Source: an uncultured Wenzhouxiangellaceae bacterium
GTDB taxonomy: Bacteria > Pseudomonadota > Gammaproteobacteria > Xanthomonadales > SZUA-36
NCBI GenBank assembly: GCA_964602895.1
Contig: CAZRTG010000001.1
Location: 494 to 64,493 of the forward strand
Direction of reading: 5' to 3'
Length of the DNA stretch: 64,000 bases
How positions within the stretch are numbered: position 1 is the first letter of the stretch; every line of letters starts with the position of its first letter. Below are positions 30,262-47,880 of the stretch, piece after piece. The notes beneath the pieces were generated by a model. The model was not told the DNA's origin. It made no database searches and was given only the letters and a program-made list of their open reading frames with translations. A program made the translations under genes and the position numbers.

Positions 30262-30266
30262 AGATC

Positions 30267-33069: not shown

Positions 33070-33873
33070 TCAATGCTCCAACACCTGTGAAAGAAAACGC
33101 TTCACCCGGTCGTTCGCGGGTGCATCAAAAAACTGATCCGGTGCACAATCTTCAACGATGCAGCCTTCATCCATAAACAACACACGATTGGCAACCCGTC
33201 GTGCAAAGGTCATTTCATGGGTGACGCAGACCATGGTCATGCCGGATTGTGCCAGCGCAATCATGGTTTCCAACACCTCGCCAATGGTCTCCGGGTCCAG
33301 AGCCGACGTAGGCTCGTCAAACAGCATCATGCCGGGCTCCATGCACAGGGCACGGGCTATGGCAACACGTTGCTGTTGGCCACCCGACATCTGTGCCGGA
33401 TACTTGGCGCCAAAGCCCGTCAGCTTGACCTTGTCCAGATAATAGTTGGCCCGATCGATCGCAACCGCGTTGGGGCACTTGTGTACCACCCGCGGTGCCA
33501 ATGTGAGGTTTTCCAGTACGGTCAGATGCGGGAACAAATTGAATTGCTGAAATACCATGCCGACGTTCTGCCGCATCAAGCGAATTTCTTTTGCCGTCCG
33601 GGCTTCCTTGCCCTGTACTTTCAGACTGCCGGATTGGTGTTTTTCCAGTGCGTTGATGCAACGTATCAGAGTGGATTTACCGGAACCGGACGGCCCGCAA
33701 ATCACCACCTTTTCACCGGTATGAATCTGCAGGTTGATGTCTTTCAATACATGCAGGTCACCGTACCACTTGTTCAAACCGGTGATCTGTACCTGCGGTA
33801 CGTTCCCTGCTGCATCAGGTTGCTGGTCTTGCATCTGCATGTTCAAAACTCCACTCTGGACCTTGAGGCTCAT
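33070..33873 (-). CDS. polar amino-acid ABC transporter ATP-binding protein (AapP/GlnQ-like)
   Basis: Walker A GPSGSGKST, signature MSGGQQQR, Walker B MLFDEPTSALD. ATGA overlap with the upstream SDR gene. Confidence 0.9.
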   Translation of the reverse strand: MSLKVQSGVLNMQMQDQQPDAAGNVPQVQITGLNKWYGDLHVLKDINLQIHTGEKVVICGPSGSGKSTLIRCINALEKHQSGSLKVQGKEARTAKEIRLMRQNVGMVFQQFNLFPHLTVLENLTLAPRVVHKCPNAVAIDRANYYLDKVKLTGFGAKYPAQMSGGQQQRVAIARALCMEPGMMLFDEPTSALDPETIGEVLETMIALAQSGMTMVCVTHEMTFARRVANRVLFMDEGCIVEDCAPDQFFDAPANDRVKRFLSQVLEH

Positions 33874-34733
33874 TCTACCGACGACTTGTCTCCCGCTACC
33901 CACCACGCAATATCGGCCAGGCGTGTAATCAGTGTCTGACGCTCGATGTCGTCCAGGCCAGTCAATACTTCCTGCATCAACAAAGCCTTTTCGCCAACAA
34001 TGTAACGAAACTCCGGTGCATCATCTGTGGCGATCTGCCGAATCAATGCAGCCACTTCCTTTGGGTCCCCGCCTTCGGCCACCGACTCACGAACCTTGTC
34101 GAAACGAAAAGCCAGCAGTGCATGATAGGGTGAATCAACCGCAATCCCGGCAGGCATGGTCATCTTGTGCCCGATATCGGTTCTAAAGGCGCTGGGGCAA
34201 ACCACGGATACCTGGATACCGAAACGATGAACTTCATATTTCATGGCTTCAAATGCGATTTCCAGTGCCGCCTTGCTGGCGCAATAGGCCCCGTCAATAA
34301 CGCGCCCCACCATGGAACCGATGGATGAAACGGTGATGATACGGCCCCATTGGCGCTCACGCATGGCGGGCAATACCGCTCTGGCCATGTTGATGGCACC
34401 AAAAAAATTGGTTTCAAACACCTGTCTGAAATCACCATCGGGCATATCTTCCATGGCGCCCAGCAAATGGATCCCGGCATTGTTGACCAGCACATCGATC
34501 CGCCCATGGTCGGTCAGCACCGCGGCCACACACTGCCGGATGGATTTCTGATGGGTGACATCCAGCGCGCGAACATCCAGGTTTTCATCTGCAGTAAAAT
34601 TGCTTTTGGTCGGGTCCCGCATGGTGGCAATCACCTGATCACCCGCCTGCAGGAATTCACGCACGCACAACTCACCAAAGCCGGAACTGCAACCCGTAAT
34701 CAGAACCACTCTCCGGTCTGGCCCAAGGCTCAT
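33870..34733 (-). CDS. short-chain dehydrogenase/reductase
   Basis: Contains ITGCSSGFG, NNAGI and YCASKAAL. The start at MSLGPDRR overlaps the ALDH stop (ATGA). Confidence 0.85.
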   Translation of the reverse strand: MSLGPDRRVVLITGCSSGFGELCVREFLQAGDQVIATMRDPTKSNFTADENLDVRALDVTHQKSIRQCVAAVLTDHGRIDVLVNNAGIHLLGAMEDMPDGDFRQVFETNFFGAINMARAVLPAMRERQWGRIITVSSIGSMVGRVIDGAYCASKAALEIAFEAMKYEVHRFGIQVSVVCPSAFRTDIGHKMTMPAGIAVDSPYHALLAFRFDKVRESVAEGGDPKEVAALIRQIATDDAPEFRYIVGEKALLMQEVLTGLDDIERQTLITRLADIAWWVAGDKSSVE

Positions 34734-36217
34734 TGCAAACTCACAACCACAGACTTCAATTCCATGTACTGCTCCATGCCTTCCCAACCATTCTCACGCC
34801 CCCAACCGGAAAGCTTGTAGCCCCCAAACGGGATGGCCGGGTCAGCAACCGCATGGCAGTTGATCCACACCAGGCCCGCCTGTACCTGGGCGGCAAGGCG
34901 GTGTCCGCGCGCCAGGTTCCGGGTCCAGATACTGGCTGCCAGGCCGTACTCGGTGTCGTTGGCGCGCTCCATCACTTCGCTGGTATCATTGAATTTCATG
35001 GCGCAAACCACCGGGCCAAAAATCTCCTCACGTACCACGGTCATGCTGTGGTCCACATCAGCCAGAACCGTTGGTCGCATGAAATAACCGTTCTGATCCA
35101 GGCGCTTGCCACCTGCAACGACCCGTGCGCCCTGGCCATGACCGTGCTCGACCATGGACAAGACTCGATTCAACTGCTTTTTTGATACCAGCGGACCCAT
35201 TTGGGTCTGCTCATTCAGCCCGGGCCCCACGCGCATGTCGTTGGCTATTTTGGCTATGCCAGCCAACACCTCATCGTAAACCGCCGCTTCGATATACAAG
35301 CGCGAACCGGCAATGCACACCTGCCCGGCATTGAAGAAAATCGCATTGGCCGCAGCCGGAATCGCCCGCTCCAGATCGGCATCGGCACAAATAATCACCG
35401 GGGATTTACCACCCAGTTCGAGTGATATTTTTTTCAGGTTACCACCGGAGTTCCGCACAATTTGCTGGCCAACTTCGGTAGAGCCGGTAAAGGCGATTTT
35501 GCGAATCCCATGGTGAGCACACATGGCTGCGCCAGCGGTATGGCCATAGCCGGGAATGATGTTCGCCACGCCTGCCGGAACGCCCGCTTCCAGCAACAGC
35601 TGGCCCATATACAAAGCGGTCAGTGGTGTTTCCTCAGCCGGTTTGAAAACCGTTGTGCAGCCTGCAGCCAGTGCCGGTGCCAGCTTCCAGGAAGCAGACA
35701 CAATTGGCCCGTTCCACGGTACGATTTGCCCCACCACACCGATGGGTTCGCGCCGGGTGTATGCATGAAAATCAGACGGGGAAGAGGATACCTGCGGGGT
35801 TTTGCCTTCAATCTTGGTACACAGGCCGGCATAGTGGCGGAAAGTCTTTGCTGCGGCCGGAACATCTCCGGCAATTGAGGCACTCAAGGGCTTGCCATTT
35901 TCCAACGTATTCAACCGCGCCAGGTCGCCAACATGCTCTTCCAGCAATTCGGCAACGCGCCAGAGTATTTTACTGCGTTCATAAGGCGTGATCCCGGTCC
36001 AGGCACCGTTCTGGAAGGCATCCGATGCCGCTGTTACAGCCGCATCCACCTCAGCCTGACCGGCTGCCGCCACCGATGCAATAACCGTTTCAGTGGCGGG
36101 ATCAATCACCTCAATCTGTTCACCCGACTCCGCCTGCACCCATTCGCCACCAATCAGCATGGGGCGGCTGGCAGCGAGAAACTTATCAAGCGACTGCGCC
36201 TTGGACGACTGGCTCAC
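34730..36217 (-). CDS. NAD(P)-dependent aldehyde dehydrogenase (paralogue 2)
   Basis: Contains ELGGKSPVII, GQVCIAGSRLYI and EEIFGPV. Confidence 0.9.
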   Translation of the reverse strand: MSQSSKAQSLDKFLAASRPMLIGGEWVQAESGEQIEVIDPATETVIASVAAAGQAEVDAAVTAASDAFQNGAWTGITPYERSKILWRVAELLEEHVGDLARLNTLENGKPLSASIAGDVPAAAKTFRHYAGLCTKIEGKTPQVSSSPSDFHAYTRREPIGVVGQIVPWNGPIVSASWKLAPALAAGCTTVFKPAEETPLTALYMGQLLLEAGVPAGVANIIPGYGHTAGAAMCAHHGIRKIAFTGSTEVGQQIVRNSGGNLKKISLELGGKSPVIICADADLERAIPAAANAIFFNAGQVCIAGSRLYIEAAVYDEVLAGIAKIANDMRVGPGLNEQTQMGPLVSKKQLNRVLSMVEHGHGQGARVVAGGKRLDQNGYFMRPTVLADVDHSMTVVREEIFGPVVCAMKFNDTSEVMERANDTEYGLAASIWTRNLARGHRLAAQVQAGLVWINCHAVADPAIPFGGYKLSGWGRENGWEGMEQYMELKSVVVSLQ

Positions 36218-36471
36218 GGGCGGCCACCTTTTTTCTGCGGCTTGCCTTTGAACTTGCCGAACCAGTAAACAAAGGGAAAACTCAAAACAAAGCGAAACGC
36301 AGCGCCGCTACTGAAAATTGCCTTGGCAATCGTCATGGCGTCTTCAGGTGTGATGTGCACCTTGGTAGCCATGGATTTGGTTGGGTCGTTCAGTACCACG
36401 ATGCCATGCTTTGTTTTCTCAATGCGATGCACCTCAAAATCCAGTTCTACCAGTTTGCTGACCACCTTCAC
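36214..36471 (-). CDS. conserved 85-aa tail-anchored small protein (paralogue 2 of 2)
   Basis: Same length and architecture as 18736..18993. Shared residues: MKV-SKL, DF, DP, M--KV, P-D, AKA, L-FPF, and a basic tail KFKGKPQKKGGRP. Confidence 0.7.
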   Translation of the reverse strand: MKVVSKLVELDFEVHRIEKTKHGIVVLNDPTKSMATKVHITPEDAMTIAKAIFSSGAAFRFVLSFPFVYWFGKFKGKPQKKGGRP

Positions 36472-36539
36472 TGCATTTTGCTCCTTTATTGCCCGTTACG
36501 TTCAGACCATTGCCTGAACGCAATACCTGTCTGACCCTA

Positions 36540-37697
36540 TCAGTCCTTACGCAAAGTACCCATTTTGTGCGCATGGGCTACCCGCTGTTCAAGCTCACCC
36601 GACATCTGTTCCGGGGTCATGCCGGCAGGCGGCGTGAAGGTGCCCTGCGCATACAACCGGTCCAGCGCCAACTTGGCACCTTCGATTTTATCGGTCAGAT
36701 TGCGTGGCGGCTTGCCAACCGGGAACGTATTGGGCGGGTAAATGGGCTTTTCATACATTTCCGCAAATATTTCCGTACGCATATCCACCCAGGTGTTATG
36801 CGCAATACGTGAACGGTGCTCCCGCAAGGCCTCGATATCAATGGGTGCCGCCAGTACCTGCTCGGCAGGATAGGGGGCAATCCGGTTGACCACGCCAATG
36901 TAATCGATAATCAACGAGTGGCCGGGGCAGAATGCTTTCGGATAATAATCATAGTCACAGGTGCCCCAGTTGGAACCCAACAGGTAACACATGTTGTCAT
37001 GGGCACGGGCACGCCGGGTGAAGGTCCAGAAATCCCAGGGATCGGAAATGCCTTCAAACGACTGGTTCGCAGTGGGATGGCAAATTACTTCAGCGCCGTT
37101 ATAAGCCAGTGCACGGGAAATTTCCGGTGTGGCGCCATCGTGACAGGTCATGGTGCCCAACTTGCCAATTTCGGTGTCCACTACCGGGAAGCGGCTTTTC
37201 AGATCGGCGCCGTATACCGGACCGTATTCGGCAATCATGTCATGCGGGCTGGTGCCCAGACCAATATAGGCCGGCACATGCCACTTGTGGTATTTGAGAA
37301 TGACATCGCCATCGGGGCCTATGATAAAAGCGGTATTGAACCAGCGATCCGGGAATTCAGGCAGCTTCTCAATTACACCACCACCGGCAATGTACATGCC
37401 ATACTGTTTGGCTTTCTGGCCCAGAATTTCGGTCTCGGGTCCGGGAATGGTAATGGCCTTTTTCATAAAGCCTTCCAGACCGTCCTCACCTTTACCTGGA
37501 GTGGTCACACCCTGCAGGAAATATTCAGGCAACACCGCCAACCGGGCCGGTAATTCCCAGTAATAGCCCACACCAAAGTCGATCATATTGCACACCCGGT
37601 TCAGGTTGACCATGATGTCATCCCGGTTCTGGGCAATTTTCACTGCGGGCTGGATTACAAGTCCTGTATAGGTTTTGATTCTGCTAGCCATAATCAT
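36540..37697 (-). CDS. carbon-nitrogen hydrolase (nitrilase superfamily) (paralogue 2 of 2)
   Basis: Shares long identical runs with 17564..18718: FPDRWFNT, LKYHKWH, DTEIGKLGTMTCHDG, YYPKAFCPG, EKPIYPPN, FTPPAG. Start set at MIMASR (AAGGA upstream). The ORF-track start is 37784. Confidence 0.82.
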   Translation of the reverse strand: MIMASRIKTYTGLVIQPAVKIAQNRDDIMVNLNRVCNMIDFGVGYYWELPARLAVLPEYFLQGVTTPGKGEDGLEGFMKKAITIPGPETEILGQKAKQYGMYIAGGGVIEKLPEFPDRWFNTAFIIGPDGDVILKYHKWHVPAYIGLGTSPHDMIAEYGPVYGADLKSRFPVVDTEIGKLGTMTCHDGATPEISRALAYNGAEVICHPTANQSFEGISDPWDFWTFTRRARAHDNMCYLLGSNWGTCDYDYYPKAFCPGHSLIIDYIGVVNRIAPYPAEQVLAAPIDIEALREHRSRIAHNTWVDMRTEIFAEMYEKPIYPPNTFPVGKPPRNLTDKIEGAKLALDRLYAQGTFTPPAGMTPEQMSGELEQRVAHAHKMGTLRKD

Positions 37698-37755
37698 TCT
37701 ATTCCTTAATAAATTGAGCGTTTGGGTATTCAGTTCCTGAGTATTAAAAAACCGG

Positions 37756-39315
37756 TCACATTGCCATGTCTTCCAGCATTTCATTGGCCGTCACCATGCC
37801 CATGGCAGATATACCGCCACCGGGGTGACAGGAGGCTCCGGTCAGATAGAAGTTTTTCAAAGGACCGCGATACTGTGAATAGCCGGGCATGGGGCGAAAG
37901 TAGCCTGACTGCGACAAAGTCCGTTCGCCACCGGTAGTAGAACCACCAATCAGACAGGCATTGGCCCGTTCAATACTGATGGGCGTATCAATATACTCGC
38001 CAAGGATGTTTTCGGGACCCATATTGCTGGTGTACTCGCGCAATTTGCTCAACACCAGAGCGGCATATTCGTCTTTGATATCGTCCCAGCTCTCACCACT
38101 CTCCAGCCGGTTCGGCACAAAGGTGTCGATGATCAGCGTGTGTTTGCCCTCGGGAGCACGGCTGGGATCCTGCAAGGTCCAGCAAGCCGTCCAGATAAAA
38201 GGATTGCGCGGCGGTACGCCCAGTGTGATATCGGCAAAATGTTCACGGGTGGCATCCACCGAATAGAAAATCCGCTGGAAACTGGTCTGGCTCATCTCTT
38301 CGCCATTGAGAAACTTGGGCGCCTCATTGAGTGCATAGTGCGCGCGAAACACGCCGATATCGCCGAATGAAAAGGCTTTGGCCATACGCGGTATCGATTC
38401 GTCCAGGTGTTCCTCGTCTATCAGCTTGAGGAAATTCTGTTTCGGATCCAGTGAGCTGACTACCGCTTTGCCTGCATACAGCTCACGGCCATCTTCCAGA
38501 CGCACGCCGCGGGCCTTTCCGTCTTCAACCAGGATTTTTTCCACACCACTGCCGGTCAGCACCTGACCCTTGCGATCGCGTACATAGGCGGCCAGGGCTT
38601 CTGCCAACATCTGGCTGCCGCCTTTGGGTATGGCCTGGCCGTAAACGTGTATGCCCGGGATCATGATGTAGAACGTCTGGCCCACAGCCTCCTGATCCGG
38701 TCCGATTTGCGGTGCCAGCGCCCAACCCAGGATGACGTTTTTAACTTCGGGATGCCGGAAATTTTCCTCGACAAAAGCACGAGCACTGAGATTGTAGTCA
38801 CGCAGCATCTTCAGGCCTTCGGTACTTTTCTCCATCACCATGGGCAGATAGCTGGGCGGTACCGGCGTAGAAAACATGCCTTTGATAAAGCCGTCTTTGA
38901 TTTCAATAAAGCCATCAAAAATTTCCCGATAGCGTTTGGCATCTGCTTCGGAGTACCGGGCAATGCTGGCACAGGTTTTGTCGACATCCCTGTAAATAAT
39001 GATGCCGGGGCCTTGCCTGGTTGGGTGACCGGTAATCTTGTCATCGGCCCAGATGTACTCCAGACCATAAGCCTCGAGATCGGGCATGATTTCCTTGAAG
39101 TAGGGGTTGGCATGCAGCCAAACGTGGCTGGAACCGTACAGGTCATGCTTGAAGCCCGGTAGCGTGACTTCACGGGTACCGGTGGCGCCACCCAACCAGG
39201 TATTTTTTTCGACGACGATGGTGGTCAATCCGGCCTTGGCCAGGCTGGCACTGCAGGCCAGACCATTGTGCCCACCACCAATGATAATGACGTCAGCGTC
39301 TGCGACGTTGCTCAT
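37756..39315 (-). CDS. FAD-dependent oxidoreductase, CrtI/amine-oxidase-like (paralogue 2 of 3)
   Basis: Contains DVIIIGGGHNGL, PGFKHD, DVDKTC, PPSY and GASCHPGGGI. Start at MSNVADAD (GGAGA upstream). Confidence 0.82.
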   Translation of the reverse strand: MSNVADADVIIIGGGHNGLACSASLAKAGLTTIVVEKNTWLGGATGTREVTLPGFKHDLYGSSHVWLHANPYFKEIMPDLEAYGLEYIWADDKITGHPTRQGPGIIIYRDVDKTCASIARYSEADAKRYREIFDGFIEIKDGFIKGMFSTPVPPSYLPMVMEKSTEGLKMLRDYNLSARAFVEENFRHPEVKNVILGWALAPQIGPDQEAVGQTFYIMIPGIHVYGQAIPKGGSQMLAEALAAYVRDRKGQVLTGSGVEKILVEDGKARGVRLEDGRELYAGKAVVSSLDPKQNFLKLIDEEHLDESIPRMAKAFSFGDIGVFRAHYALNEAPKFLNGEEMSQTSFQRIFYSVDATREHFADITLGVPPRNPFIWTACWTLQDPSRAPEGKHTLIIDTFVPNRLESGESWDDIKDEYAALVLSKLREYTSNMGPENILGEYIDTPISIERANACLIGGSTTGGERTLSQSGYFRPMPGYSQYRGPLKNFYLTGASCHPGGGISAMGMVTANEMLEDMAM

Positions 39316-40614: not shown

Positions 40615-40623
40615 GATCGCGTT

Positions 40624-41784: not shown

Positions 41785-41800
41785 GAGCGGACGAAACCCA

Positions 41801-42448
41801 TCAGACCGGCTTCAAAGCCTTGTTCAGCGCCTGGTTCAGCCCGGCAATCACTGCAGTAACAGAGCTGTTTGGGAGTATCATTTGCCACCAGTCCTTCAAT
41901 ACCGGATGTTGCAATCTGAAGTCGGCTTGTCCCTGGCGGGCAAGAAAAAGATCCAGATAAAAGCAGGCCGGAATCAGGGCGCAATCCGCCAGATTCAGAT
42001 CATCACCGCACACATAGGAGCCCTGTCCGGACAAGCTTTCCAGACCGGAAAGTGTCTGGTGCAACTCAGCCAACAGGCCAGGCAAGGCAGCATCACCCGC
42101 TTGCAAAGCACGCAGGCGAAACATCAGGGGATACAGGTACAGATCAACTGCTCGAATGAACGCCCGTATGCGGGCTGTTGCAAGTGCGTCTTTCCCACGC
42201 ATGCCGGGCTCCGGATAACAGTCTTCAAGGTATTCAGCAATGGCACCGGATTCGACAATGCTATCCGTTCCAACCAGTAGAATTGGCGTTTTGGAAAAGG
42301 GATTCAGGGCTCCATGTTCGGCCGGAGTGGTGCCGGCATCCGGGAACTGCGTATCGATTTTCAGCCCTTTGTGCCAAATCTGGATATGCAAACGCGCTGC
42401 AAAAGGTGACGTAGGCAAGGCAATCAGCTGCAGCTTTTCCATGGTCAT
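41801..42448 (-). CDS. glutathione S-transferase family protein
   Basis: Thioredoxin-like N-domain (LIALPTSPFAARL ... PILLVGTDSIVESGAIAEYLED) plus a helical C-domain. Confidence 0.78.
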   Translation of the reverse strand: MTMEKLQLIALPTSPFAARLHIQIWHKGLKIDTQFPDAGTTPAEHGALNPFSKTPILLVGTDSIVESGAIAEYLEDCYPEPGMRGKDALATARIRAFIRAVDLYLYPLMFRLRALQAGDAALPGLLAELHQTLSGLESLSGQGSYVCGDDLNLADCALIPACFYLDLFLARQGQADFRLQHPVLKDWWQMILPNSSVTAVIAGLNQALNKALKPV

Positions 42449-43542
42449 GCTTCGGCCTGCATATACTCGGTAATTTTGGCCAGAAAGACTTCATTTTCAT
42501 GCGCTGCCCCCACCGTTACCCGCAGGCAATCGCCGGGTCCGGAGACGCCGGTAGGCCGTAATAATATCCCGTTCTCAGTCAGAAACTTTGCAGCACCCAG
42601 AGCGGTGTGGCCCCGGGTTTCCGGTATTTGCATCAGCAGGAAATTGGTTACGCTGGGCGGTACCTGAATACCGAGGTCCATCAAATGCGCACGCATGCGC
42701 TCACGCCAACTGATGGTGTGATCACGTACCATATCGGCAAATTCATCATCCTGCATGGCCGCTGCCGCAGCCACCTGTGCCGGCCAATTGGTATTAAAAG
42801 GTGTTCTGATGCGCTGGATGGCGTTGACCACGCCAGCAGGTGCATACGCCCAGCCGATACGGGTTCCCGCCAGGCCATATAATTTGGAAAATGTACGGGT
42901 CATGATCACGTTTTGTGAACCACGAACCAACTCAAGGCCACTGTCGAAATCAGCTTCCACCACATAATCCGCGTAGGCACCGTCCAACAGCAACAATACC
43001 GTGGCAGGCAAGCCGGCATGCAAACGCCGGATCTCGTTTGCCGTGAGGTAAGTCCCGGTTGGATTGTTCGGATTCGCTACCGCAACGATACGGGTCTTGT
43101 CGGTTACCGCAGCAAGAATATTGTCAACACTCTGGTCCCAGCCTTGCTCGGCAGCGACAACCACTTTTGCACCCTGGGCAAGAGCATGTATTCGCGTCAT
43201 TACAAAACCGTTTTCGCTTACCAACACCTCATCGCCAGGATCAACAAAGGTGCGGATCGCCAACAGAATCAATTCTTCACTGCCATTGCCGCAAACGATG
43301 CGCTCTTCCTCAATACCGAATTTTTCTGCAATGACCTTGCGTAAAGCAGATTGCGTACCATCGGGATAACGGTGCAAGCTTTCCACTGCTTGCCTGAACG
43401 ATTCCCGGGCACGCGGGCTGGGCCCGAAGGGTGACTCGTTGGAAGAAAGCTTGATGGGGTCGGCAACACCGACTATGGCGCTTTTACCCTGAACATAGGC
43501 CGGACAACTGTCCAGCGCCTTGCGGGGAATCGGATGGCTCAA
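42445..43542 (-). CDS. class-II (HisC-like) PLP aminotransferase (paralogue 2)
   Basis: Contains KLSSNESPFGP, TRTFSKLYGLAGTRIGWAY and RTPFN. Confidence 0.82.
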   Translation of the reverse strand: MSHPIPRKALDSCPAYVQGKSAIVGVADPIKLSSNESPFGPSPRARESFRQAVESLHRYPDGTQSALRKVIAEKFGIEEERIVCGNGSEELILLAIRTFVDPGDEVLVSENGFVMTRIHALAQGAKVVVAAEQGWDQSVDNILAAVTDKTRIVAVANPNNPTGTYLTANEIRRLHAGLPATVLLLLDGAYADYVVEADFDSGLELVRGSQNVIMTRTFSKLYGLAGTRIGWAYAPAGVVNAIQRIRTPFNTNWPAQVAAAAAMQDDEFADMVRDHTISWRERMRAHLMDLGIQVPPSVTNFLLMQIPETRGHTALGAAKFLTENGILLRPTGVSGPGDCLRVTVGAAHENEVFLAKITEYMQAEA

Positions 43543-43595
43543 AACGAGTACTCCTTAACAAAACCTGTAAAACTGAGTCAGTCTGCGGCGAAGAA

Positions 43596-44618
43596 TTAAC
43601 GGAACGGCAGGGCAAACATCAAGCCCCCGTCTTTCCACAAGCGGTTGGGACCTCGTTTCAGCCCAATCGGGGCAAGATTCCGCTCCCACATATCTTCATA
43701 ATTTCCCACCAGACGAATGATGTCGTAGGCCCAGTCGTTGGATAAACCCAGAACTGCGCCAAAGTCACCGTATACGCCCAACAAGCGCTGCACTTCCCGG
43801 TTACCGGACTCTTTGCGCTGTTGTTCAACATTGGCCTGGTTTATGCCGTGCTGTTCGGCCAGTAAACGGATATTGAATGACCATAAAACAATGTCGTGCC
43901 AGCGCGAGTCGTTCTGCCGTACCAACGGCCCCTGAGGCTCATTGGAGATGGTTTCTTCAAGTATCATGTGTGAATCGGGGTCGTACATGCCGGCCATGCG
44001 TGTGGATAAAGCGGCACGCTGCATGGTTAAAGCATCGCAGCGATCGGCTTCGTAAGCTTCCATCGCCTTGTCTGTATCGTTAAAAGTGATCAGCTGATAA
44101 TCGAGGCCTATACTTTCAAAAAGATCGGCCAGGTTTTGTTCCAGCGTTGTGCCCTGGGCCACACAGATCGTGGCTCCGGCCAGATCTGCAACTTTGCTGA
44201 CGTCTTTGTCCTTTCGCACCATGAAGCCCTGGCCGTCATAAAAATAGATACCGGCATAATCCAGGCCCAGTGAGGTATCGCGCAAATAGGACCAGGTCGC
44301 GCCTGCAGGAAACAGGTCGATGGCACCGGATTGCAATAGGGTAAACCCGGTTTGAGGTGTAGCCAGCACATATTCGACTTTGAGTTCGCCAAACACTGCA
44401 GCGGCGATTGTTTTACAGTGATCCACTTCAAATCCGGCCCGCTCACCCCGGGCGTTCAGATAGCTGAAACCCACACCCGACTCGGTAATACCGCATTTCA
44501 GAAAACCGCGTGCCCGGACCTCATCCAGCGTGTCCGCACCAACCCAGGGTGTCGCCAACGTTGTGACAACAGCCAACAACCAACCTAACTGCTTCGCTCT
44601 TGCGACAGGTGTAGCCAT
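43596..44618 (-). CDS. amino-acid ABC transporter periplasmic substrate-binding protein (AapJ-like)
   Basis: Signal peptide plus a type-3 SBP pattern. 340 aa, matching the AapJ size class. Confidence 0.82.
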   Translation of the reverse strand: MATPVARAKQLGWLLAVVTTLATPWVGADTLDEVRARGFLKCGITESGVGFSYLNARGERAGFEVDHCKTIAAAVFGELKVEYVLATPQTGFTLLQSGAIDLFPAGATWSYLRDTSLGLDYAGIYFYDGQGFMVRKDKDVSKVADLAGATICVAQGTTLEQNLADLFESIGLDYQLITFNDTDKAMEAYEADRCDALTMQRAALSTRMAGMYDPDSHMILEETISNEPQGPLVRQNDSRWHDIVLWSFNIRLLAEQHGINQANVEQQRKESGNREVQRLLGVYGDFGAVLGLSNDWAYDIIRLVGNYEDMWERNLAPIGLKRGPNRLWKDGGLMFALPFR

Positions 44619-44644
44619 ATTTCTATGTCCTTGGCAAAGGTCGA

Positions 44645-46207
44645 TTAAAATTCATCCTCCAACATCCCGAAATCTTTCAGCATTTCATGAGCTGTAATCA
44701 CGCCCATGCCACTGATACCGCCTCCCGGGTGACAGGACGGGCCTGCCAGATACATTTTCTCCAGCGGACCACGGTACTGCGAATAGCCGGGAAACGGCCG
44801 GAAATAGCCTAACTGGGCCAGGGTACGTTCGCCACCCGATGGCACACCACCCACAAAACAGGGATTGTGCGCTTCCATGTCTTCGGGCGAATGCGAGAAG
44901 GTTGCAATGATATTGTCATCCGACATATTGGTGGTGTAATTGCGCAGCGTTTTGACCAGTTCTTTGGAGTACTCGTCCTTGATGTCGGACCAACTGCCGC
45001 TGGCCAGTTTGCTGGGCACAAAAGTATCAATCATGAACGTGTGCTTGCCTTCGGGTGCCCGCGATGGGTCACGCAAGCTCCAGCAGTGGCCGTGCACCGG
45101 CGGTGTTGCCGAAGGCTTACCCACACTGAGCTCGGCAAAATGCCGGTCGATATCTTTCATGCTGGTGATGGTGCGCTGGAACGGCGCTTTGCTGATGTTC
45201 TCGCTACCAATATAGTGCGGTGCTTCATGCAGGGCGAAATGCACGCGGAATGAGGCAACATCACCAAAAGTGAAGTTCTCTACCTGTTTGCGGAAACCCG
45301 GATCGAGTTGCTCCTGATCCATCAACTTGAGGAAAGTCTGTTGTGGCTCCAGTGCACTGACCACACCCCTGCTGGCGGTGATCTCGGTACCGTCTTCGAG
45401 GCGGATACCTTTGGCCACACCTCCATCCGTCAGTATTTTGGCCACCGGACTGTTGGTCAGGACCTTACCGCCATTGGCATTGACGTATTTGGCAAGCGCA
45501 TTGGGCAGCGCGATGCTGCCACCTTTCGGTATGGCCTGCCCGTACACGTGGATGGCCGGAATCATGATATAGAAAATATTTCCGGCACCCTGCTGGGTGG
45601 GTTTGATATTGGGTCCCAGAGCCCATGAGGTCAGAAAGGCCTGTATGTGCGGGTTCTCGAAATTCTCCAACACAAAGGCACGTGCACTGAGGCTGTAATT
45701 GCGCAGCATCTTCAGGCCTTCAGTACTGTTTTCCATTGCCGCCGGCAAATAGCTGGGCGGCGATGGCGGGGTGAACATGTTCCTGGTAAAGCCATCCTTG
45801 ATTTCTACAAAGCCATCGTAGATCTCACGATAGCGGGCGGCATCTTTTCTGGAATACTCTGCGATGCTGTCACAGGTTTTGTCCAGGTCACGATAGACAA
45901 TAACCCCGGGACCTTCCTCCATGGGATGACCCATGACCTCATCTTCACCCCATAGGTATTCAAGGCCGTACTTTTCCAACTCGGGCATCAGGTCCTGAAT
46001 GTAGGGATTGGCATGAATCCAGACATGGTTTGAACCGAATAGATCGTGTTTGAAGCCCGGTACGGTCAGTTCCCGGGTGACGGCGCCGCCCCCGACCCAG
46101 TCGTTGCGTTCAGCCACCAGCGTGCGCAAACCGGCACGACACAATACCGCGGCACAGGCCAGGGCGTTATGACCGCCACCGGCAATGACTACATCATAAT
46201 CAGACAT
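44645..46207 (-). CDS. FAD-dependent oxidoreductase, CrtI/amine-oxidase-like (paralogue 3 of 3)
   Basis: Contains DVVIAGGGHNAL, PGFKHD, DLDKTC, PPSY and GPSCHPGGGI. Confidence 0.82.
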   Translation of the reverse strand: MSDYDVVIAGGGHNALACAAVLCRAGLRTLVAERNDWVGGGAVTRELTVPGFKHDLFGSNHVWIHANPYIQDLMPELEKYGLEYLWGEDEVMGHPMEEGPGVIVYRDLDKTCDSIAEYSRKDAARYREIYDGFVEIKDGFTRNMFTPPSPPSYLPAAMENSTEGLKMLRNYSLSARAFVLENFENPHIQAFLTSWALGPNIKPTQQGAGNIFYIMIPAIHVYGQAIPKGGSIALPNALAKYVNANGGKVLTNSPVAKILTDGGVAKGIRLEDGTEITASRGVVSALEPQQTFLKLMDQEQLDPGFRKQVENFTFGDVASFRVHFALHEAPHYIGSENISKAPFQRTITSMKDIDRHFAELSVGKPSATPPVHGHCWSLRDPSRAPEGKHTFMIDTFVPSKLASGSWSDIKDEYSKELVKTLRNYTTNMSDDNIIATFSHSPEDMEAHNPCFVGGVPSGGERTLAQLGYFRPFPGYSQYRGPLEKMYLAGPSCHPGGGISGMGVITAHEMLKDFGMLEDEF

Positions 46208-46218
46208 ACGAAGACTAC

Positions 46219-47880
46219 CTATTCAGCGTTTTGTGACTGGAGCATGCGATTGGAGCGGTTTTCGCCCAACAACAGGAACTTCCAGGGAAAGTCGGTTTTT
46301 CCGAGCGGCATTTCGATCACCACCGGGCCATCCTGCTCAAAGCCAAGACGGATTTTTTCTTCCAGTTCTTCAACTGAGTTTGCGGTATAGCCGGTGGCGC
46401 CAAAACTCTCGGCCATGGCAGCAAAATCCGGGTTGGTCAGATCGGTGCCAATTACGCGGCCACCAAAGCGCTTGGTCTGTGCGCGGGCCACATTGGTGTA
46501 AGCACCATCATTGAAAACGATAATGACCATATTGAGCTTGTAGCGGACTGCGGTAGCCAATTCACCACAATGGAACAGGAATCCGCCGTCACCGCTCAGC
46601 GCTATGACCTTTTTCTCGGGGTTGGCTACTTTCACCCCGATGGCCGTGGGCAAGCCATAACCCAGGTTACCGGCATAACCGCTGGTGATCAGCGTACGCG
46701 GTGCATATACGGGATAACCGTACCAGGAGGCATAGCCCACCTGGGTGATTTCATCCACCAGAATGCCATCATCGGACAAAGCTTCCCGAATCACGCCCAG
46801 TATCGATAACTGGGGCTGCACGTGATCGGAGAACTCCTGGCGCATTTCCTGCTGGAATGCCTTCAGTTCCTGTTCACGGGACGGTCTTGGTGGCAGCTGT
46901 CTGGAAACCAGAGTGGCCAGCAAAGCGGCAACCGAAGGAGCCGCATCGCCGACGATGCCCACATCGGGTTTGGATATCCGGCCAATTTCGGTGGGGTCGA
47001 TATCAATGTGTATGGTTTTCAGATTGACGTCCGTGCCCCAGTGCATACGCGGGTACTTGAAGCGCGTGCCAATGGCGATCGCCACATCAACTTCCGGCCA
47101 CATGCGATGCCCCGCCGGGAAGCTGTGTGCCAGATAATGCTTATCGCTGAGCACACCACGCCCGCCTCGCTGGGACACGACGGGCGCCTGCAGCAGTTCG
47201 GCCAGTTGACGAATTTCTTCACAGGCATGGATCGCCCCGGTTCCCACCAGAATCATGGGCTTTTTGGCACCGGCCAGTAATTTGGCCGCCTGTTCGATCA
47301 ATTCCGGATTGGCCACCACGGTTTCGGGATGATCAACGGGTTCCAGCATCTCGACTTCAGCCTCTTCCGACATGATGTCCAGCGCCATTTCCAACGAAAC
47401 CGGGCGCCTGCGGCCGGTGGTGAGTTGCCTGAAGGCTTCCTTCACTGCTTCAGGCGCATGGGATGGGTGCTCCACTCTTGTGGCCCATTTGGTCATGCGT
47501 TGCAATATACCCAGTTGATCAGGAACATCATGCAGGTAGCCCACACCTCTGCCGATGCCATTGGAGGGCACCTGGCCCGTCAAACAGAGCACCGGCTCAT
47601 TGCAGGCGTAGGCAGTGCTCAATGCGGCAGCAGAATTCAACACACCCGGTCCAGGCACTACGGTATAAACGCCTACTTTGCCAGTAGAGCGGGCATAGCC
47701 AAAGGCCATATAGGCGGCGCCCTGCTCGCTGCGGGTGGTGATCAGGTTGATGTCTTCACCTTTGGCGTACAGGGCGTCAAACAGCTCATAGGTCTGTCCA
47801 CCGGGAATGCCGAAGATCGTGTCAACTCCGTGATTCAACACGGAATCCATCAAGGCCTTTCCGCCCTTCAATTTGGCCAT
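46219..47880 (-). CDS. thiamine-pyrophosphate-dependent enzyme (paralogue 2)
   Basis: Contains SGDGGFLF...VFNDGAY. Start at MAKLKGGK preceded by GAGGAG. The ORF-track start at 47991 is probably too long. Confidence 0.88.
   Translation of the reverse strand: MAKLKGGKALMDSVLNHGVDTIFGIPGGQTYELFDALYAKGEDINLITTRSEQGAAYMAFGYARSTGKVGVYTVVPGPGVLNSAAALSTAYACNEPVLCLTGQVPSNGIGRGVGYLHDVPDQLGILQRMTKWATRVEHPSHAPEAVKEAFRQLTTGRRRPVSLEMALDIMSEEAEVEMLEPVDHPETVVANPELIEQAAKLLAGAKKPMILVGTGAIHACEEIRQLAELLQAPVVSQRGGRGVLSDKHYLAHSFPAGHRMWPEVDVAIAIGTRFKYPRMHWGTDVNLKTIHIDIDPTEIGRISKPDVGIVGDAAPSVAALLATLVSRQLPPRPSREQELKAFQQEMRQEFSDHVQPQLSILGVIREALSDDGILVDEITQVGYASWYGYPVYAPRTLITSGYAGNLGYGLPTAIGVKVANPEKKVIALSGDGGFLFHCGELATAVRYKLNMVIIVFNDGAYTNVARAQTKRFGGRVIGTDLTNPDFAAMAESFGATGYTANSVEELEEKIRLGFEQDGPVVIEMPLGKTDFPWKFLLLGENRSNRMLQSQNAE

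What the first reader, a model, noticed from the sequence alone, without database searches (positions are those of the whole stretch)
33070..47880. A 13-gene operon and a second locus carry paralogous transaminase / TPP-enzyme / aldehyde-dehydrogenase sets around the triad
**Seen in the sequence**
- Locus B (47880 to 33070, all minus, mostly overlapping or closely spaced genes) encodes, in order:
  1. TPP enzyme
  2. CrtI-like flavoprotein 3
  3. AapJ-like binding protein
  4. HisC-like aminotransferase
  5. GST
  6. two permeases
  7. CrtI-like flavoprotein 2
  8. C-N hydrolase
  9. small protein
  10. ALDH
  11. SDR
  12. ABC ATPase
- Locus A (11601-20853) has the paralogous ALDH, HisC-like aminotransferase, CrtI-like flavoprotein 1, C-N hydrolase, small protein and TPP enzyme.
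- Each enzyme class is therefore present at least twice. Shared motifs include RTFSK--GLAG-RIGWAY, SGDGGF, ELGGKSPVII and GQVC-AGSRLY.

**Established analogy**
- Aminotransferase, then TPP-dependent 2-oxoacid decarboxylase, then aldehyde dehydrogenase is the logic of the arginine transaminase route (AruH, AruI, KauB).

**Inference**
- These are two dedicated catabolic systems for imported amino-acid-like compounds. They combine a transaminase route with the flavoprotein/amidase step.
- The divergent LysR gene (48172) is the obvious regulator candidate for locus B.
- The labels acetolactate synthase, histidinol-phosphate aminotransferase and phytoene desaturase that automatic annotation would give are probably all misleading here.
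Basis: partly seen in the sequence, partly recalled or inferred. Interest (0 to 1): 0.62.

Follow-up and report, generated by a model that had tools for sequence, protein, structure and literature searches.

The report
Two paralogous nitrogen-compound catabolic gene clusters
The window carries two old, diverged copies of a conserved but uncharacterised bacterial enzyme set (flavoprotein, amidase, small membrane protein, thiamine enzyme, aminotransferase, aldehyde dehydrogenase) that most likely breaks down imported nitrogen-containing compounds; the substrates are unknown, and one copy is tied to sugar-acid genes in many bacteria.

Summary

Corrections:
- Locus B has a 14th co-directional gene, an FAH-family dehydratase-like gene at 31866-33056.
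- A 207-nt gap splits locus B into two blocks, the same two blocks that are permuted in Sphingomonas flavalba.

The copies are not a recent duplication. In neighbour-joining trees, A and B fall in separate old clades for flavoprotein, amidase, TPP enzyme and ALDH, less cleanly for the aminotransferase. Both types coexist in five assemblies.

The A form is widespread in Gamma- and Alphaproteobacteria and repeatedly sits among mannonate dehydratase (ManD or UxuA), KDG kinase and KDPG aldolase genes.

Locus B instead carries an AapJ/BztA-type amino-acid ABC importer, a GST and a GcvA-type LysR gene with a conserved spacer box.

Best reading: two substrate-specific catabolic clusters built from two sub-modules.
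- Flavoprotein + small protein + amidase.
- Aminotransferase -> TPP decarboxylase -> ALDH.

The substrates are unknown. The AruH/AruI/KauB analogy holds as logic, not as membership. No paper in the library describes this cluster.

The parts
46219..47880 (-). Locus B TPP-dependent enzyme (553 aa), PRK08266 subfamily; likely 2-oxoacid decarboxylase
   Evidence: Pfam TPP_enzyme_N/M/C. NCBIfam PRK08266 734 > 571; AruI model 387 < 500; ALS model 358 < 538. ATG at 47880 with a GAGGAG 9 nt upstream. GDG...ND TPP motif.
44645..46207 (-). Flavoprotein Fl3, CrtO/PYROXD2-like FAD dehydrogenase; extra copy specific to the B lineage
   Evidence: Pfam Amino_oxidase / NAD_binding_8. CrtO model 265 bits, below cut-off. 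Sister clade to Fl2 in the NJ tree.
43596..44618 (-). Periplasmic binding protein, AapJ/BztA/YhdW family
   Evidence: Pfam SBP_bac_3. PDB 4z9n 1e-87. The family is described as carrying Glu/Gln/Asp/Asn or having broad specificity (bioRxiv 10.64898/2026.05.04.722672).
42445..43542 (-). HisC-like class I/II aminotransferase (TTG start, AAGGAG upstream)
   Evidence: Pfam Aminotran_1_2. TIGR01141 299 > 276.6. PLP-lysine motif RTFSK.
41801..42448 (-). Glutathione S-transferase family protein
   Evidence: Pfam GST_N/GST_C. Best NCBIfam hit maiA, only 44 bits. 4-nt overlap with the aminotransferase stop.
39523..41784 (-). Two ABC permeases (40624-41784 and 39523-40614)
   Evidence: Pfam BPD_transp_1 in both; gaps 16 and 9 nt.
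37756..39315 (-). Flavoprotein Fl2, first gene of the second block; preceded by a 207-nt gap
   Evidence: Pfam. Start corrected by alignment to Fl1 and Fl3. GGGHNGL FAD motif.
36540..37691 (-). C-N hydrolase (nitrilase superfamily amidase), 383 aa
   Evidence: Pfam CN_hydrolase. Glu/Lys/Cys positions align with formamidase AmiF. 67% identical to the locus A copy.
36214..36471 (-). 85-aa protein with hydrophobic C-terminal segment and basic tail; partner of the flavoprotein
   Evidence: No Pfam or NCBIfam hit. 64-93% conserved in related loci. Hydropathy. ORFs of the same architecture follow distant Fl homologues.
34730..36217 (-). Aldehyde dehydrogenase
   Evidence: Pfam Aldedh 1e-178. Best NCBIfam hit StyD 609 < 850. 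Motifs ELGGKSPVII and GQVCIAGSRLY.
33870..34733 (-). Short-chain dehydrogenase (ATGA overlap with the ALDH stop)
   Evidence: Pfam adh_short; start corrected.
33070..33873 (-). ABC transporter ATPase (ATGA overlap with the SDR stop)
   Evidence: Pfam ABC_tran; start corrected.
31866..33056 (-). 14th gene: FAH-family protein, KdaD-like 2-keto-3-deoxy-acid dehydratase candidate
   Evidence: Pfam FAA_hydrolase. PDB 9kkt 6e-123 and KdaD 2q18 1e-15. Lies 13 nt after the ATPase. Conserved downstream of the ATPase gene in L084, L088, L112, L090 and L091.
48172..49107 (+). Divergent LysR-family regulator, GcvA subfamily
   Evidence: Pfam HTH_1 + LysR_substrate. PRK11139 354 > 288. A LysR homologue lies divergently beside the cluster in L084, L088 and L090/91.
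48000..48034 (.). Conserved box in the TPP-LysR spacer; candidate LysR operator overlapping a promoter-like site
   Evidence: Alignment with Elongatibacter, a Gammaproteobacteria MAG and S. flavalba. Promoter-like hexamers at 48044..48017 on the minus strand.
11601..14403 (-). Locus A aldehyde dehydrogenase (11601-13088/13109) and HisC-like aminotransferase (13276-14403); MarR gene at 11073-11570 downstream
   Evidence: ALDH: best NCBIfam hit StyD 542 bits, below its 850 cut-off. AT: TIGR01141 284 > 276.6. PDB: ALDH to 4o5h 2e-146, AT to 4r2n 1e-49. MarR: Pfam MarR.
14682..15890 (+). D-mannonate dehydratase ManD, first gene of the plus-strand half of locus A
   Evidence: NF043051 ManD 758 > 550; PDB 2qjj 3e-215.
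15918..18993 (+). Locus A triad: flavoprotein Fl1 (15918-17501), C-N hydrolase (17564-18718), small protein (18736-18993)
   Evidence: Pfam; gaps 62 and 17 nt. 80-95% (CN) and 71-90% (Fl) identity in 80 loci.
19210..24800 (+). Locus A TPP enzyme (19210-20853), DUF819 transporter (20941-22074), SDR (22115-22900), Gfo/Idh/MocA (22910-23911), SDR (23925-24800)
   Evidence: Pfam. PRK08266 758 > 571. Gaps 9-87 nt. Homologues recur near the triad.
2468..4142 (-). KDG kinase (2468-3523) and KDPG/KHG aldolase (3501-4142), the sugar-acid end steps linked to the A-type module in other genomes
   Evidence: Pfam PfkB and Aldolase; NCBIfam KDG-kinase-type hits. They lie next to MarR-ALDH-AT in L085.
29191..31793 (+). 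Cyclase-family hydrolase-like gene (29191-30261) and GarD/UxaA-type sugar-acid dehydratase-like gene (30255-31793), convergent on locus B
   Evidence: Pfam Cyclase, GD_AH_second and GD_AH_C. Galactarate dehydratase model 385 < 731. Homologues lie next to the FAH gene in L084 and L112 and near Fl in L095, L115 and L116.

Best explanation
Locus B is a catabolic gene cluster of about 14 genes, probably controlled by the divergent GcvA-type LysR regulator. It serves an imported, amino-acid-like nitrogen compound. Locus A is an old paralogue that serves a different but chemically related substrate.

Both loci are built around one conserved enzyme module made of two sub-modules:
1. A CrtO/PYROXD2-like FAD dehydrogenase with its ~85-aa partner, which has a hydrophobic tail, plus an amidase of the nitrilase superfamily. 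Inferred role: the flavoprotein oxidises a C-N bond (or the carbon beside it) to give an amide. The amidase then hydrolyses the amide and releases nitrogen.
2. A HisC-like aminotransferase, a PRK08266-type TPP-dependent 2-oxoacid decarboxylase and an aldehyde dehydrogenase. Inferred role: amino acid -> 2-oxo acid -> aldehyde -> acid shorter by one carbon.

Locus B adds:
- an AapJ/BztA-type ABC importer
- a second flavoprotein
- a GST
- an SDR
- an FAH-family dehydratase-like enzyme

Locus A adds:
- ManD
- a DUF819 transporter
- SDR and Gfo/Idh/MocA dehydrogenases
- in relatives, KDG kinase and KDPG aldolase

The carbon skeleton of the locus A substrate therefore probably ends as D-mannonate -> KDG -> pyruvate + glyceraldehyde-3-phosphate.

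Shown: gene content, paralogy, conservation, catalytic motifs and context. Inferred: every reaction, the pairing of enzymes and the substrates.
For: - Domains and family scores.
- Paralogy.
- Packing of locus B: gaps -4 to 68 nt, one gap of 207 nt.
- Conservation of Fl-CN-small-TPP-AT-ALDH order in about 100 loci from many genera.
- In some Alphaproteobacteria the two sub-modules lie in separate divergent units, e.g. TBDR-TPP-AT-ALDH | LysR | Fl-CN in L102 (L104-L106 map alike).
- In 72 loci of at least 15 kb: 54 hold TPP, AT or ALDH; 32 hold ManD, UxuA, KDG kinase or Eda; 40 hold a TonB receptor; 36 hold DUF819.
- ManD and UxuA replace each other in the same operon position. Mannonate dehydration is therefore tied to the module.
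- The amidase Glu/Lys/Cys positions align with AmiF.
- NJ trees put A and B copies in separate clades for all five enzymes (the AT split is the least clean), with Fl2 and Fl3 as sisters.
- A and B coexist in five assemblies.
- A divergent LysR gene beside the cluster in four related loci and a spacer box shared across genera.
- The binding protein belongs to the AapJ/BztA family.
- No ALS small-subunit gene lies beside either TPP gene.
- Base composition of both loci matches the rest of the window.
Against: - No member of the flavoprotein, amidase or TPP subfamilies has a tested function, so no reaction is shown.
- The aminotransferases pass the HisC model cut-off.
- Distant flavoprotein homologues (33% identity) with the same small partner lie in aromatic ring-cleavage clusters without an amidase. 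The flavoprotein could therefore be a C-C desaturase rather than a C-N oxidase.
- The pairing AT + amidase (as in the glutamine transaminase / omega-amidase route) is not excluded.
- Co-transcription is untested.
- The sugar-acid link could partly reflect clustering of catabolic genes rather than one pathway.
Confidence: 0.55

Rival explanations
1. Sugar-derived amine reading, a refinement of the best explanation. The substrates are glycated or polyhydroxylated amines or amino acids, for example N-alditolyl or Amadori-type amino acids, glycosylamines, hexosaminates or iminosugars. The flavoprotein oxidises the C-N carbon of the sugar part to an aldonamide or lactam. The amidase opens it to an aldonate (D-mannonate in locus A) plus an amine or ammonia. 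The AT/TPP/ALDH genes handle the amino-acid or keto-acid part. Locus B would send its carbon through a GarD-like dehydratase, the FAH-family dehydratase and the ALDH, as in the Weimberg route.
For: - Recurrent linkage to ManD or UxuA, KDG kinase, Eda, SDR, Zn-ADH, Gfo/Idh/MocA and sulfatase genes in Gamma- and Alphaproteobacteria, in different arrangements.
- In Halieaceae the order is Fl-CN-small-TPP-AT-ALDH-KDGK-UxuA-Eda on one strand.
- In locus B, an FAH gene similar to KdaD and a GarD/UxaA-like dehydratase next to it, also in L084, L112, L115 and L116.
- From established knowledge: the natural HisC substrate carries its amine on a carbon next to a CH2-O group, like an amino-alditol carbon.
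Against: - No enzyme of this kind is known in the CrtI/CrtO family.
- Known Amadori and opine oxidases belong to other flavoprotein families.
- No abundant natural substrate of this type is established for marine Gammaproteobacteria.
- The roles of TPP and ALDH stay vague.
- 40 of the 72 long loci show no sugar-acid gene within 10 kb. This count is a lower bound on linkage, because the ORF calling was crude.
Confidence: 0.2
2. Aromatic amino acid reading. AT -> arylpyruvate decarboxylase -> arylacetaldehyde dehydrogenase forms an Ehrlich-type route. In parallel, an amino-acid 2-monooxygenase-like flavoprotein plus amidase (the logic of IaaM/IaaH or DavB/DavA) gives the same arylacetate.
For: - Best solved relatives: ALDH to phenylacetaldehyde dehydrogenase 4o5h (2e-146) and the StyD models; AT to the M. 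tuberculosis putative phenylalanine aminotransferase 4r2n (1e-49).
- A MarR gene with its best (weak) hit to HpaR.
- An AMP-ligase / thiolase-like / Rieske dioxygenase block next to locus A in the window, Elongatibacter and two MAGs.
- A kynureninase gene at 235-1467.
- An NSS-family symporter-like ORF in some Halieaceae loci, assigned from its sequence alone and not scanned against any family library.
Against: - All scores are below family cut-offs.
- The two routes would be redundant within one operon.
- The flavoprotein is CrtO-like, not of the LAAO/MAO type to which the known 2-monooxygenases belong.
- This reading does not explain the mannonate/KDG linkage.
- The locus B importer family is described for acidic amino acids and their amides, or for broad specificity.
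Confidence: 0.12
3. Omega-amide reading. The aminotransferase and the amidase work together as in the glutamine transaminase / omega-amidase route: gamma-glutamyl or asparaginyl-type amide -> 2-oxo-amide -> 2-oxoglutarate or oxaloacetate plus an amine. The TPP enzyme + ALDH then act like the cyanobacterial 2-oxoglutarate decarboxylase / succinic semialdehyde dehydrogenase pair. The flavoprotein oxidises the released amine.
For: - The amidase hits Nit2 (omega-amidase) and yeast Nit3 about as well as it hits formamidase (6.9e-16 and 4.7e-16 against 1.3e-18).
- It gives weak hits to deaminated-glutathione amidase models.
- The binding-protein family is known for Glu/Gln/Asp/Asn.
- A GST gene lies in the operon.
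- From established knowledge: an ALS-like 2-oxoglutarate decarboxylase paired with an ALDH is known in Synechococcus.
Against: - Conserved gene order couples the amidase to the flavoprotein, not to the aminotransferase.
- Proteobacteria have 2-oxoglutarate dehydrogenase and would not need this bypass.
- All similarities are weak.
Confidence: 0.1
4. True arginine transaminase pathway (AruH-AruI-KauB), or a guanidino/ureido-compound version of it.
For: The AruI model (PRK07524) is the second-best NCBIfam hit for both TPP enzymes (381-387 bits). The order transaminase, decarboxylase, ALDH fits.
Against: - The scores are below the 500-bit cut-off, and the proteins belong to another subfamily, PRK08266.
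- No arginase-fold guanidinobutyrase and no agmatine or arginine enzyme appears among the Pfam results for the window.
- The sugar-acid linkage is unexplained.
Confidence: 0.05
5. Ordinary biosynthetic genes: HisC, acetolactate synthase and a carotenoid desaturase that happen to be clustered.
For: Both aminotransferases pass the TIGR01141 HisC cut-off narrowly (284 and 299 against 276.6).
Against: - The ALS and CrtI models fail their cut-offs.
- There is no ALS small subunit, no his or ilv genes and no other crt genes nearby.
- The genes are duplicated and embedded among transporters, amidases and catabolic regulators.
- The whole set travels together across phyla.
Confidence: 0.03

Closest known systems
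Arginine transaminase pathway of Pseudomonas aeruginosa (AruH, AruI, KauB)
   Same: The same three-step logic: aminotransferase, ALS-like TPP 2-oxoacid decarboxylase, aldehyde dehydrogenase. AruI is the nearest named relative of the TPP enzymes.
   Different: - The TPP enzymes fall below the AruI cut-off and belong to PRK08266.
- The aminotransferase is HisC-like.
- No guanidinobutyrase is present.
- The module always travels with a flavoprotein/amidase/small-protein triad and often with sugar-acid genes.
Lysine 2-monooxygenase / 5-aminopentanamidase (DavB/DavA) and tryptophan 2-monooxygenase / indoleacetamide hydrolase (IaaM/IaaH)
   Same: A flavoprotein of the amine-oxidase superfamily sits next to an amidase. 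DavA is also a nitrilase-superfamily enzyme. The logic is amino acid -> amide -> acid + ammonia.
   Different: - The flavoprotein here is CrtO/PYROXD2-like, not of LAAO/MAO type. PDB matches to MAO cover only the FAD-binding N-terminus.
- It has a dedicated small hydrophobic-tailed partner.
- The amidase is 383-384 aa with a C-terminal extension and is closest to formamidase and Nit2.
CrtO beta-carotene ketolase and vertebrate PYROXD2
   Same: CrtO is the best NCBIfam model for all three flavoproteins (265-280 bits over the full length). UniRef names a homologue PYROXD2. PYROXD2 shares ~35% identity with CrtO and shows no carotenoid activity (PMC12010460).
   Different: - Scores are far below the CrtO cut-off of 1000.
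- There are no carotenoid genes nearby.
- The biochemical function of PYROXD2 is itself unknown (PMC8777681). The only hint at amine substrates is a genetic association with urinary and plasma methylamines (PMC3169529).
Formamidase AmiF / aliphatic amidase and omega-amidase Nit2 (nitrilase superfamily)
   Same: CN_hydrolase fold. The Glu-Lys-Cys positions and the CHDG..PE motif align with AmiF.
   Different: Similarity is weak throughout: E 1e-18 to 1e-16, and NCBIfam scores of 73 and below against cut-offs above 350. The protein also has a ~90-aa C-terminal extension and is very highly conserved (80-95%) across families.
Glucuronate/mannonate branch (UxuA or ManD, KdgK, Eda) and the Weimberg-type route (KdaD/XylX-like FAH dehydratase + ALDH)
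   Same: Locus A has a bona fide ManD, with KDG kinase and aldolase nearby. Locus B has a KdaD-like FAH gene and a GarD/UxaA-like dehydratase beside it.
   Different: No uronate isomerase was seen next to the module. The nitrogen-handling genes have no place in the known sugar-acid pathways.
AapJQMP / BztABCD / YhdWXYZ amino-acid ABC transporters
   Same: One SBP_bac_3 binding protein, two large permeases and one ATPase. The binding protein hits B. ovis BztA (4z9n) at 1e-87.
   Different: The genes are interleaved with enzymes, and the ATPase is six genes away from the permeases. The ligand is unknown.

Membership tests
AruI (5-guanidino-2-oxopentanoate decarboxylase) | Score above the NCBIfam PRK07524 cut-off (500 bits) | tested here: not met
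   387 bits (locus B) and 381 bits (locus A). Both pass PRK08266 instead, at 734 and 758 against 571.
Arginine transaminase pathway | Guanidinobutyrase or another arginine-specific enzyme in the locus | tested here: not met
   No arginase-fold or agmatine/arginine enzyme appears among the Pfam results for the window genes scanned.
Biosynthetic acetolactate synthase | TIGR00118 cut-off (538 bits) and an adjacent ACT-domain small subunit | tested here: not met
   358 bits for both copies. The neighbours of the TPP genes are Fl3 and LysR in locus B, and the small protein and DUF819 in locus A.
Histidinol-phosphate aminotransferase HisC | TIGR01141 cut-off (276.55 bits) | tested here: met
   299 bits (locus B) and 284 bits (locus A), both just above the cut-off. 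The best solved relative is an M. tuberculosis putative Phe aminotransferase.
Histidinol-phosphate aminotransferase HisC | Physiological role in histidine synthesis (his-operon context, auxotrophy of mutants) | not testable with these tools
   No his genes lie in the window. Only 64 kb of the genome is available.
Phytoene desaturase family (CrtI) / CrtO ketolase | TIGR02734 cut-off (238 bits) or NF045689 cut-off (1000 bits), plus carotenoid genes nearby | tested here: not met
   95-105 bits and 265-280 bits. PDB CrtI-type matches reach only 1e-11 to 1e-12. No crt genes were seen.
Nitrilase superfamily (C-N hydrolase) | CN_hydrolase domain with a Glu-Lys-Cys catalytic triad | tested here: met
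   Pfam PF00795 at 108-109 bits against 23.2. LPEYF, KYHKWH and TCHDG align with the AmiF Glu/Lys/Cys positions; the residue numbers 60/133/166 are from memory.
Formamidase / aliphatic amidase / omega-amidase as specific enzymes | Score above the equivalog cut-off | tested here: not met
   Formamidase 73 < 406; aliphatic amidase 45 < 427; deaminated-glutathione amidase 52 < 355.
D-mannonate dehydratase ManD | NF043051 cut-off (550 bits) | tested here: met
   758 bits. PDB 2qjj, N. aromaticivorans ManD, 3e-215.
GcvA-type LysR regulators | PRK11139 cut-off (288 bits) and divergent position | tested here: met
   354 bits. A 291-bp spacer to the TPP gene. A divergent LysR gene beside the cluster in L084, L088 and L090/91.
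   Gaps are -4 to 68 nt, apart from one of 207 nt. The only promoter-like site in an intergenic spacer lies upstream of the TPP gene, and terminator-like hits are no more frequent than in shuffles. RNA data are too thin.

The most novel reading that the evidence does not exclude
The flavoprotein + small-partner + amidase triad is a new membrane-associated deamination device. A CrtO/PYROXD2-type flavoprotein carries out a dehydrogenation (two- or four-electron) of a C-N carbon to give an amide, N-formyl group or lactam. The dedicated nitrilase-superfamily amidase then cleaves it.

In the widespread A-type loci this would turn sugar-derived amines (glycated amino acids, glycosylamines, iminosugars or amino-alditols) into D-mannonate for the KDG pathway.

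If true, this would give the first biochemical function for the CrtO/PYROXD2 subfamily outside carotenoids. It would also suggest what vertebrate PYROXD2 does with N-alkyl amines.
Probability: 0.12. Interest if true: 0.85.

Novelty: new variant of a known kind. Interest (0 to 1): 0.55.

Why it matters
- The module of six genes (flavoprotein, amidase, small protein, TPP enzyme, aminotransferase, ALDH) is conserved at up to 80-95% identity in many marine, sediment and sludge Proteobacteria. It also occurs in an actinobacterium. Automatic names such as phytoene desaturase, histidinol-phosphate aminotransferase and thiamine-binding protein say nothing useful about it. No paper in the searched library describes it.
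- Its repeated fusion to mannonate/KDG genes points to an unrecognised route for a nitrogen-containing, probably sugar-related, compound. Such a compound would be common enough to keep the route in many lineages.
- Finding the substrate would add a pathway to marine and wastewater carbon and nitrogen cycling.
- It would also give a function to a flavoprotein subfamily whose human member (PYROXD2) is linked to disease and to methylamine levels but has no known reaction.

Tried and rejected
- Literature: six full-text searches (PYROXD2 with bacterial substrate; combinations of phytoene desaturase/dehydrogenase, nitrilase/C-N hydrolase, TPP and aminotransferase terms; DUF819) found nothing on this cluster. 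The DUF819 papers were uninformative. The code 9KKT is in no held paper.
- Plasmid collection: amidase homologues reach only 29-36% identity, and the two regions inspected (H7, H8) show no flavoprotein next to them. Flavoprotein homologues reach only 28-34%. No opine-catabolic context was found, so the opine idea gained no support there.
- RNA evidence: two run searches and one read-laying gave only a few 150-270-nt contigs at 95-99% identity. This is not enough to test co-transcription.
- Recent horizontal transfer of locus B: rejected on composition, since GC 0.53-0.56 matches the rest of the window.
- Recent in-genome duplication: rejected by the trees.
- Terminator and promoter scans: terminator-like hits are no more frequent than in shuffles, so they say nothing about transcript ends.
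- Active-site reading of the aminotransferase to separate HisC from aromatic specificity: given up, because both C-terminal arginines appear present in both copies (read by eye from the translations, not aligned to a reference).
- Structure prediction and fold search: not run. Sequence searches already showed that no close solved relative exists, and a fold match would not name the substrate.

Full report
**1. Observation**

- TPP enzyme
- CrtI/CrtO-like flavoprotein Fl3
- SBP_bac_3 binding protein
- class I/II aminotransferase
- GST
- two permeases
- flavoprotein Fl2
- CN_hydrolase
- an 85-aa ORF with no family hit
- ALDH
- SDR
- ABC ATPase

A divergent LysR gene lies at 48172.

Locus A holds the paralogues. 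BLASTP identities are ALDH 53%, aminotransferase 48%, flavoproteins 55-58%, C-N hydrolase 67%, small protein 34% and TPP enzyme 50%, with E-values from 2e-12 to 0. The four quoted motifs occur in both copies.

**2. Anatomy of locus B**

Several longest ORFs overshoot the real start. Fl2 starts at 39315, the amidase at 37691, the SDR at 34733 and the ATPase at 33873.
- Four junctions are 4-nt ATGA-type overlaps.
- The other gaps are 9-68 nt, except a 207-nt gap between permease 2 and Fl2.
- That gap is also the breakpoint at which Sphingomonas flavalba has the two blocks in the other order: LysR | Fl2-CN-small-ALDH-SDR-ATPase-FAH ... TPP-Fl3.

A 14th gene (31866-33056, FAH family) follows the ATPase after 13 nt. 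It holds that place in five related loci. Its solved relatives are an unnamed FAH-family protein (9kkt, 6e-123) and 2-keto-3-deoxy-D-arabinonate dehydratase (2q18, 1e-15).

A ~35-bp box in the TPP-LysR spacer (about 48000-48034) is shared with Elongatibacter, a Gammaproteobacteria MAG and partly S. flavalba. It overlaps the only promoter-like site that lies in an intergenic spacer of the locus. The LysR protein passes the GcvA-subfamily cut-off.

RNA data are too sparse to test co-transcription. One metatranscriptome-labelled contig spans the ATPase/FAH junction.

**3. Distribution**

The locus A amidase has relatives of 80-95% identity in 80 loci. These include Elongatibacter sediminis, Lysobacterales MAGs, Halieaceae, Woeseiaceae, Microbulbifer and Pseudoteredinibacter.

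Mapping the window proteins on these loci shows a conserved order Fl-CN-small-TPP-AT-ALDH, with DUF819 and an SDR nearby. The triad is far better conserved (CN 80-95%, Fl 71-90%) than TPP (51-83%), AT (47-84%) and ALDH (52-90%), most of whose values lie near 60%, 50% and 55%.

The locus B amidase has close relatives only in Elongatibacter, a few MAGs and S. flavalba. More distant Fl-CN pairs occur in Hyphomonadaceae, Parvularculaceae, Sphingomonadales, Steroidobacteraceae and Pseudarthrobacter.

Neighbour-joining trees of five enzyme families place the window's A and B copies in separate clades (the aminotransferase split is the least clean) that each contain other genera. Fl2 and Fl3 are sisters inside the B clade. 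A and B coexist in five assemblies (L001/L083, L002/L086, L004/L088, L009/L114, L079/L089), 45 kb apart in Elongatibacter. Base composition shows no recent transfer.

So the sets are old paralogues or xenologues kept side by side. This argues for different substrates.

**4.

Clustering of about 1,950 ORFs from 127 loci shows that the A-type module sits among sugar-acid genes in both Gamma- and Alphaproteobacteria:
- ManD (NF043051 758 > 550; PDB 2qjj 3e-215)
- where ManD is absent, UxuA (TIGR00695 482 > 199.6)
- KDG kinase and KDPG aldolase
- a GntR/FadR regulator divergent from Fl
- a TonB receptor, DUF819, SDR, Zn-ADH, a VOC protein, Gfo/Idh/MocA and sometimes a sulfatase

In Halieaceae the order is Fl-CN-small-TPP-AT-ALDH-KDGK-UxuA-Eda on one strand. 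In L085, KDGK-Eda abut MarR-ALDH-AT.

Of 72 loci of at least 15 kb, 54 hold TPP, AT or ALDH and 32 hold a mannonate/KDG gene. These are lower bounds, because the ORF calling was crude.

Replacement of ManD by the unrelated UxuA in the same setting is the strongest sign that mannonate dehydration belongs to the same pathway.

The window has ManD directly upstream of Fl1. It has DUF819, SDR, Gfo/Idh/MocA and SDR downstream of the TPP gene, and KDG kinase and aldolase at 2468-4142.

Locus B lacks these genes. Instead it has the KdaD-like FAH gene and, converging on it, a GarD/UxaA-like dehydratase and a cyclase-family hydrolase. Homologues of both recur near B-type or related loci.

**5. What the parts are**

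*TPP enzymes.* They belong to the PRK08266 subfamily, which NCBI leaves unnamed. AruI is the next-best model but falls below its cut-off, and ALS models fail clearly. No ALS small subunit is adjacent.

*Aminotransferases.* They are HisC family and just above the HisC cut-off. The best solved relative is a putative phenylalanine aminotransferase.

*ALDHs.* They are closest to phenylacetaldehyde and betaine-aldehyde dehydrogenases, below all cut-offs.

*Amidase.* It is a nitrilase-superfamily enzyme with an aligned Glu/Lys/Cys triad. It is closest to formamidase AmiF and to Nit2/Nit3, but only weakly.

*Flavoproteins.*
- They have a single N-terminal FAD motif and the amine-oxidase/CrtI fold.
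- The best model is CrtO, at 265-280 bits against a cut-off of 1000.
- A UniRef name calls a homologue PYROXD2.
- PYROXD2 shares ~35% identity with CrtO, showed no carotenoid activity (PMC12010460) and has no known reaction (PMC8777681).
- Its locus associates with urinary trimethylamine and plasma dimethylamine (PMC3169529).

*Small protein.* It has a ~50-aa N-terminal part, a hydrophobic stretch and a basic tail. Distant Fl homologues (33% identity) on pAtK84c and pNL2 are also followed by an ~80-aa ORF of the same build, but by no amidase. The small protein is therefore a partner of the flavoprotein.

*Binding protein.* It belongs to the AapJ/BztA/YhdW family (4z9n, 1e-87). Members of this family carry Glu/Gln/Asp/Asn or have broad specificity.

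**6. Mechanism**

Conserved gene order gives two sub-modules, Fl-small-CN and TPP-AT-ALDH. In some Alphaproteobacteria they lie in separate divergent units.

The simplest reading of TPP-AT-ALDH is amino acid -> 2-oxo acid -> aldehyde -> acid, the logic of AruH/AruI/KauB.

The simplest reading of the triad is oxidation at a C-N carbon, followed by hydrolysis of the resulting amide. This is the logic of DavB/DavA, with a flavoprotein of a different subfamily that is probably tethered to the membrane.

All reactions are inferred. Nothing here identifies the substrates.

The sugar-acid linkage suggests that the locus A substrate contains, or yields, a hexonate skeleton. The importer type suggests that the locus B substrate resembles an acidic amino acid or its amide.

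Rival pairings are listed with their evidence:
- AT + amidase, as in the omega-amidase route
- an aromatic Ehrlich-type route
- the flavoprotein acting as a C-C desaturase

**7. Comparison and novelty**

Each enzyme family is known. The combination, its wide conservation, its dedicated small partner protein and its coupling to mannonate/KDG genes are not described in the library searched.

I rate the finding as a new variant of a known kind: a catabolic cluster of familiar families in a new, conserved arrangement. It is of moderate to good interest because the substrate is open and the flavoprotein subfamily includes the unexplained human PYROXD2.

The window strain occurs in activated-sludge, leachate, bioreactor and soil metagenomes.

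Noticed in passing
L130:8001-9855 (pAtK84c) and L131:8001-9820 (pNL2): Distant homologues of the flavoprotein (about 33% identity) on two alphaproteobacterial plasmids are each followed by an ~80-aa ORF. It has the same build as the window's small protein: a ~50-aa head, a hydrophobic stretch and a basic end. One is mis-annotated as PEP carboxykinase. No C-N hydrolase is present, and the neighbours are extradiol dioxygenases, monooxygenases, SDRs, HisD-like and FAH genes. The flavoprotein + small-protein pair looks like a unit of its own.
   Followed up: partly
window 14682-15890; loci L018, L019, L025, L031, L032, L046: ManD (enolase superfamily) and UxuA replace each other in the same gene neighbourhood around the module. 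This is a case of non-orthologous displacement that ties mannonate dehydration to the cluster.
   Followed up: yes
L085:8514-11300 and L087:6013-10800: Two relatives carry an A-type and a B-type C-N hydrolase gene one after the other on the same strand (adjacent in L085, about 2.3 kb apart in L087), behind a single flavoprotein gene and before one small-protein gene. This is a hybrid arrangement.
   Followed up: no
window 4173-10855: A six-gene block lies between the KDPG aldolase and the MarR gene of locus A: Rieske dioxygenase alpha and beta, an SDR, a DUF35-SDR fusion, a thiolase-like protein and an AMP-forming ligase. Parts of it occur next to MarR in Elongatibacter and two MAGs. It is absent in L085, where KDG kinase and aldolase abut MarR.
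   Followed up: partly
L056-L077 (Gammaproteobacteria MAGs): In one group of MAGs the triad stands alone among housekeeping-looking genes, which were identified by eye only. It is followed by a gene with a weak ectoine-hydroxylase-like (ThpD) hit and often a TonB receptor. No TPP, AT or ALDH lies within 10 kb.
   Followed up: no
L099:3715-8258 and L101:3570-8202 (Henriciella, Marinicaulis): Here Fl-CN-small is preceded by a ~1070-aa protein that looks by eye like a tricorn-type protease and by a Xaa-Pro-dipeptidase-like amidohydrolase. It is followed by a sulfatase, KDPG aldolase and KDG kinase (L101) or by KDG kinase (L099).
   Followed up: no
window 50543-52582: A 679-aa amidase-signature protein lies two genes beyond the LysR gene, with an MscS-type channel gene between them. 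It was not seen in the related loci examined.
   Followed up: no
window 235-2228: A kynureninase gene is followed by a 254-aa ORF with no Pfam or NCBIfam hit at the thresholds used, at the left edge of the window.
   Followed up: no
window 32995-33148: A contig from a run labelled metatranscriptomic (X28, sludge) spans the junction between the ABC ATPase and the FAH-family gene. This is weak support for read-through. The library type is uncertain and DNA carry-over is possible.
   Followed up: partly
window 36000-45999: Near-identical sequence occurs in activated-sludge, sludge, bioreactor, leachate, wastewater and soil metagenomes. The closest named relatives are marine or sediment Lysobacterales-like bacteria (Elongatibacter).
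   Followed up: no
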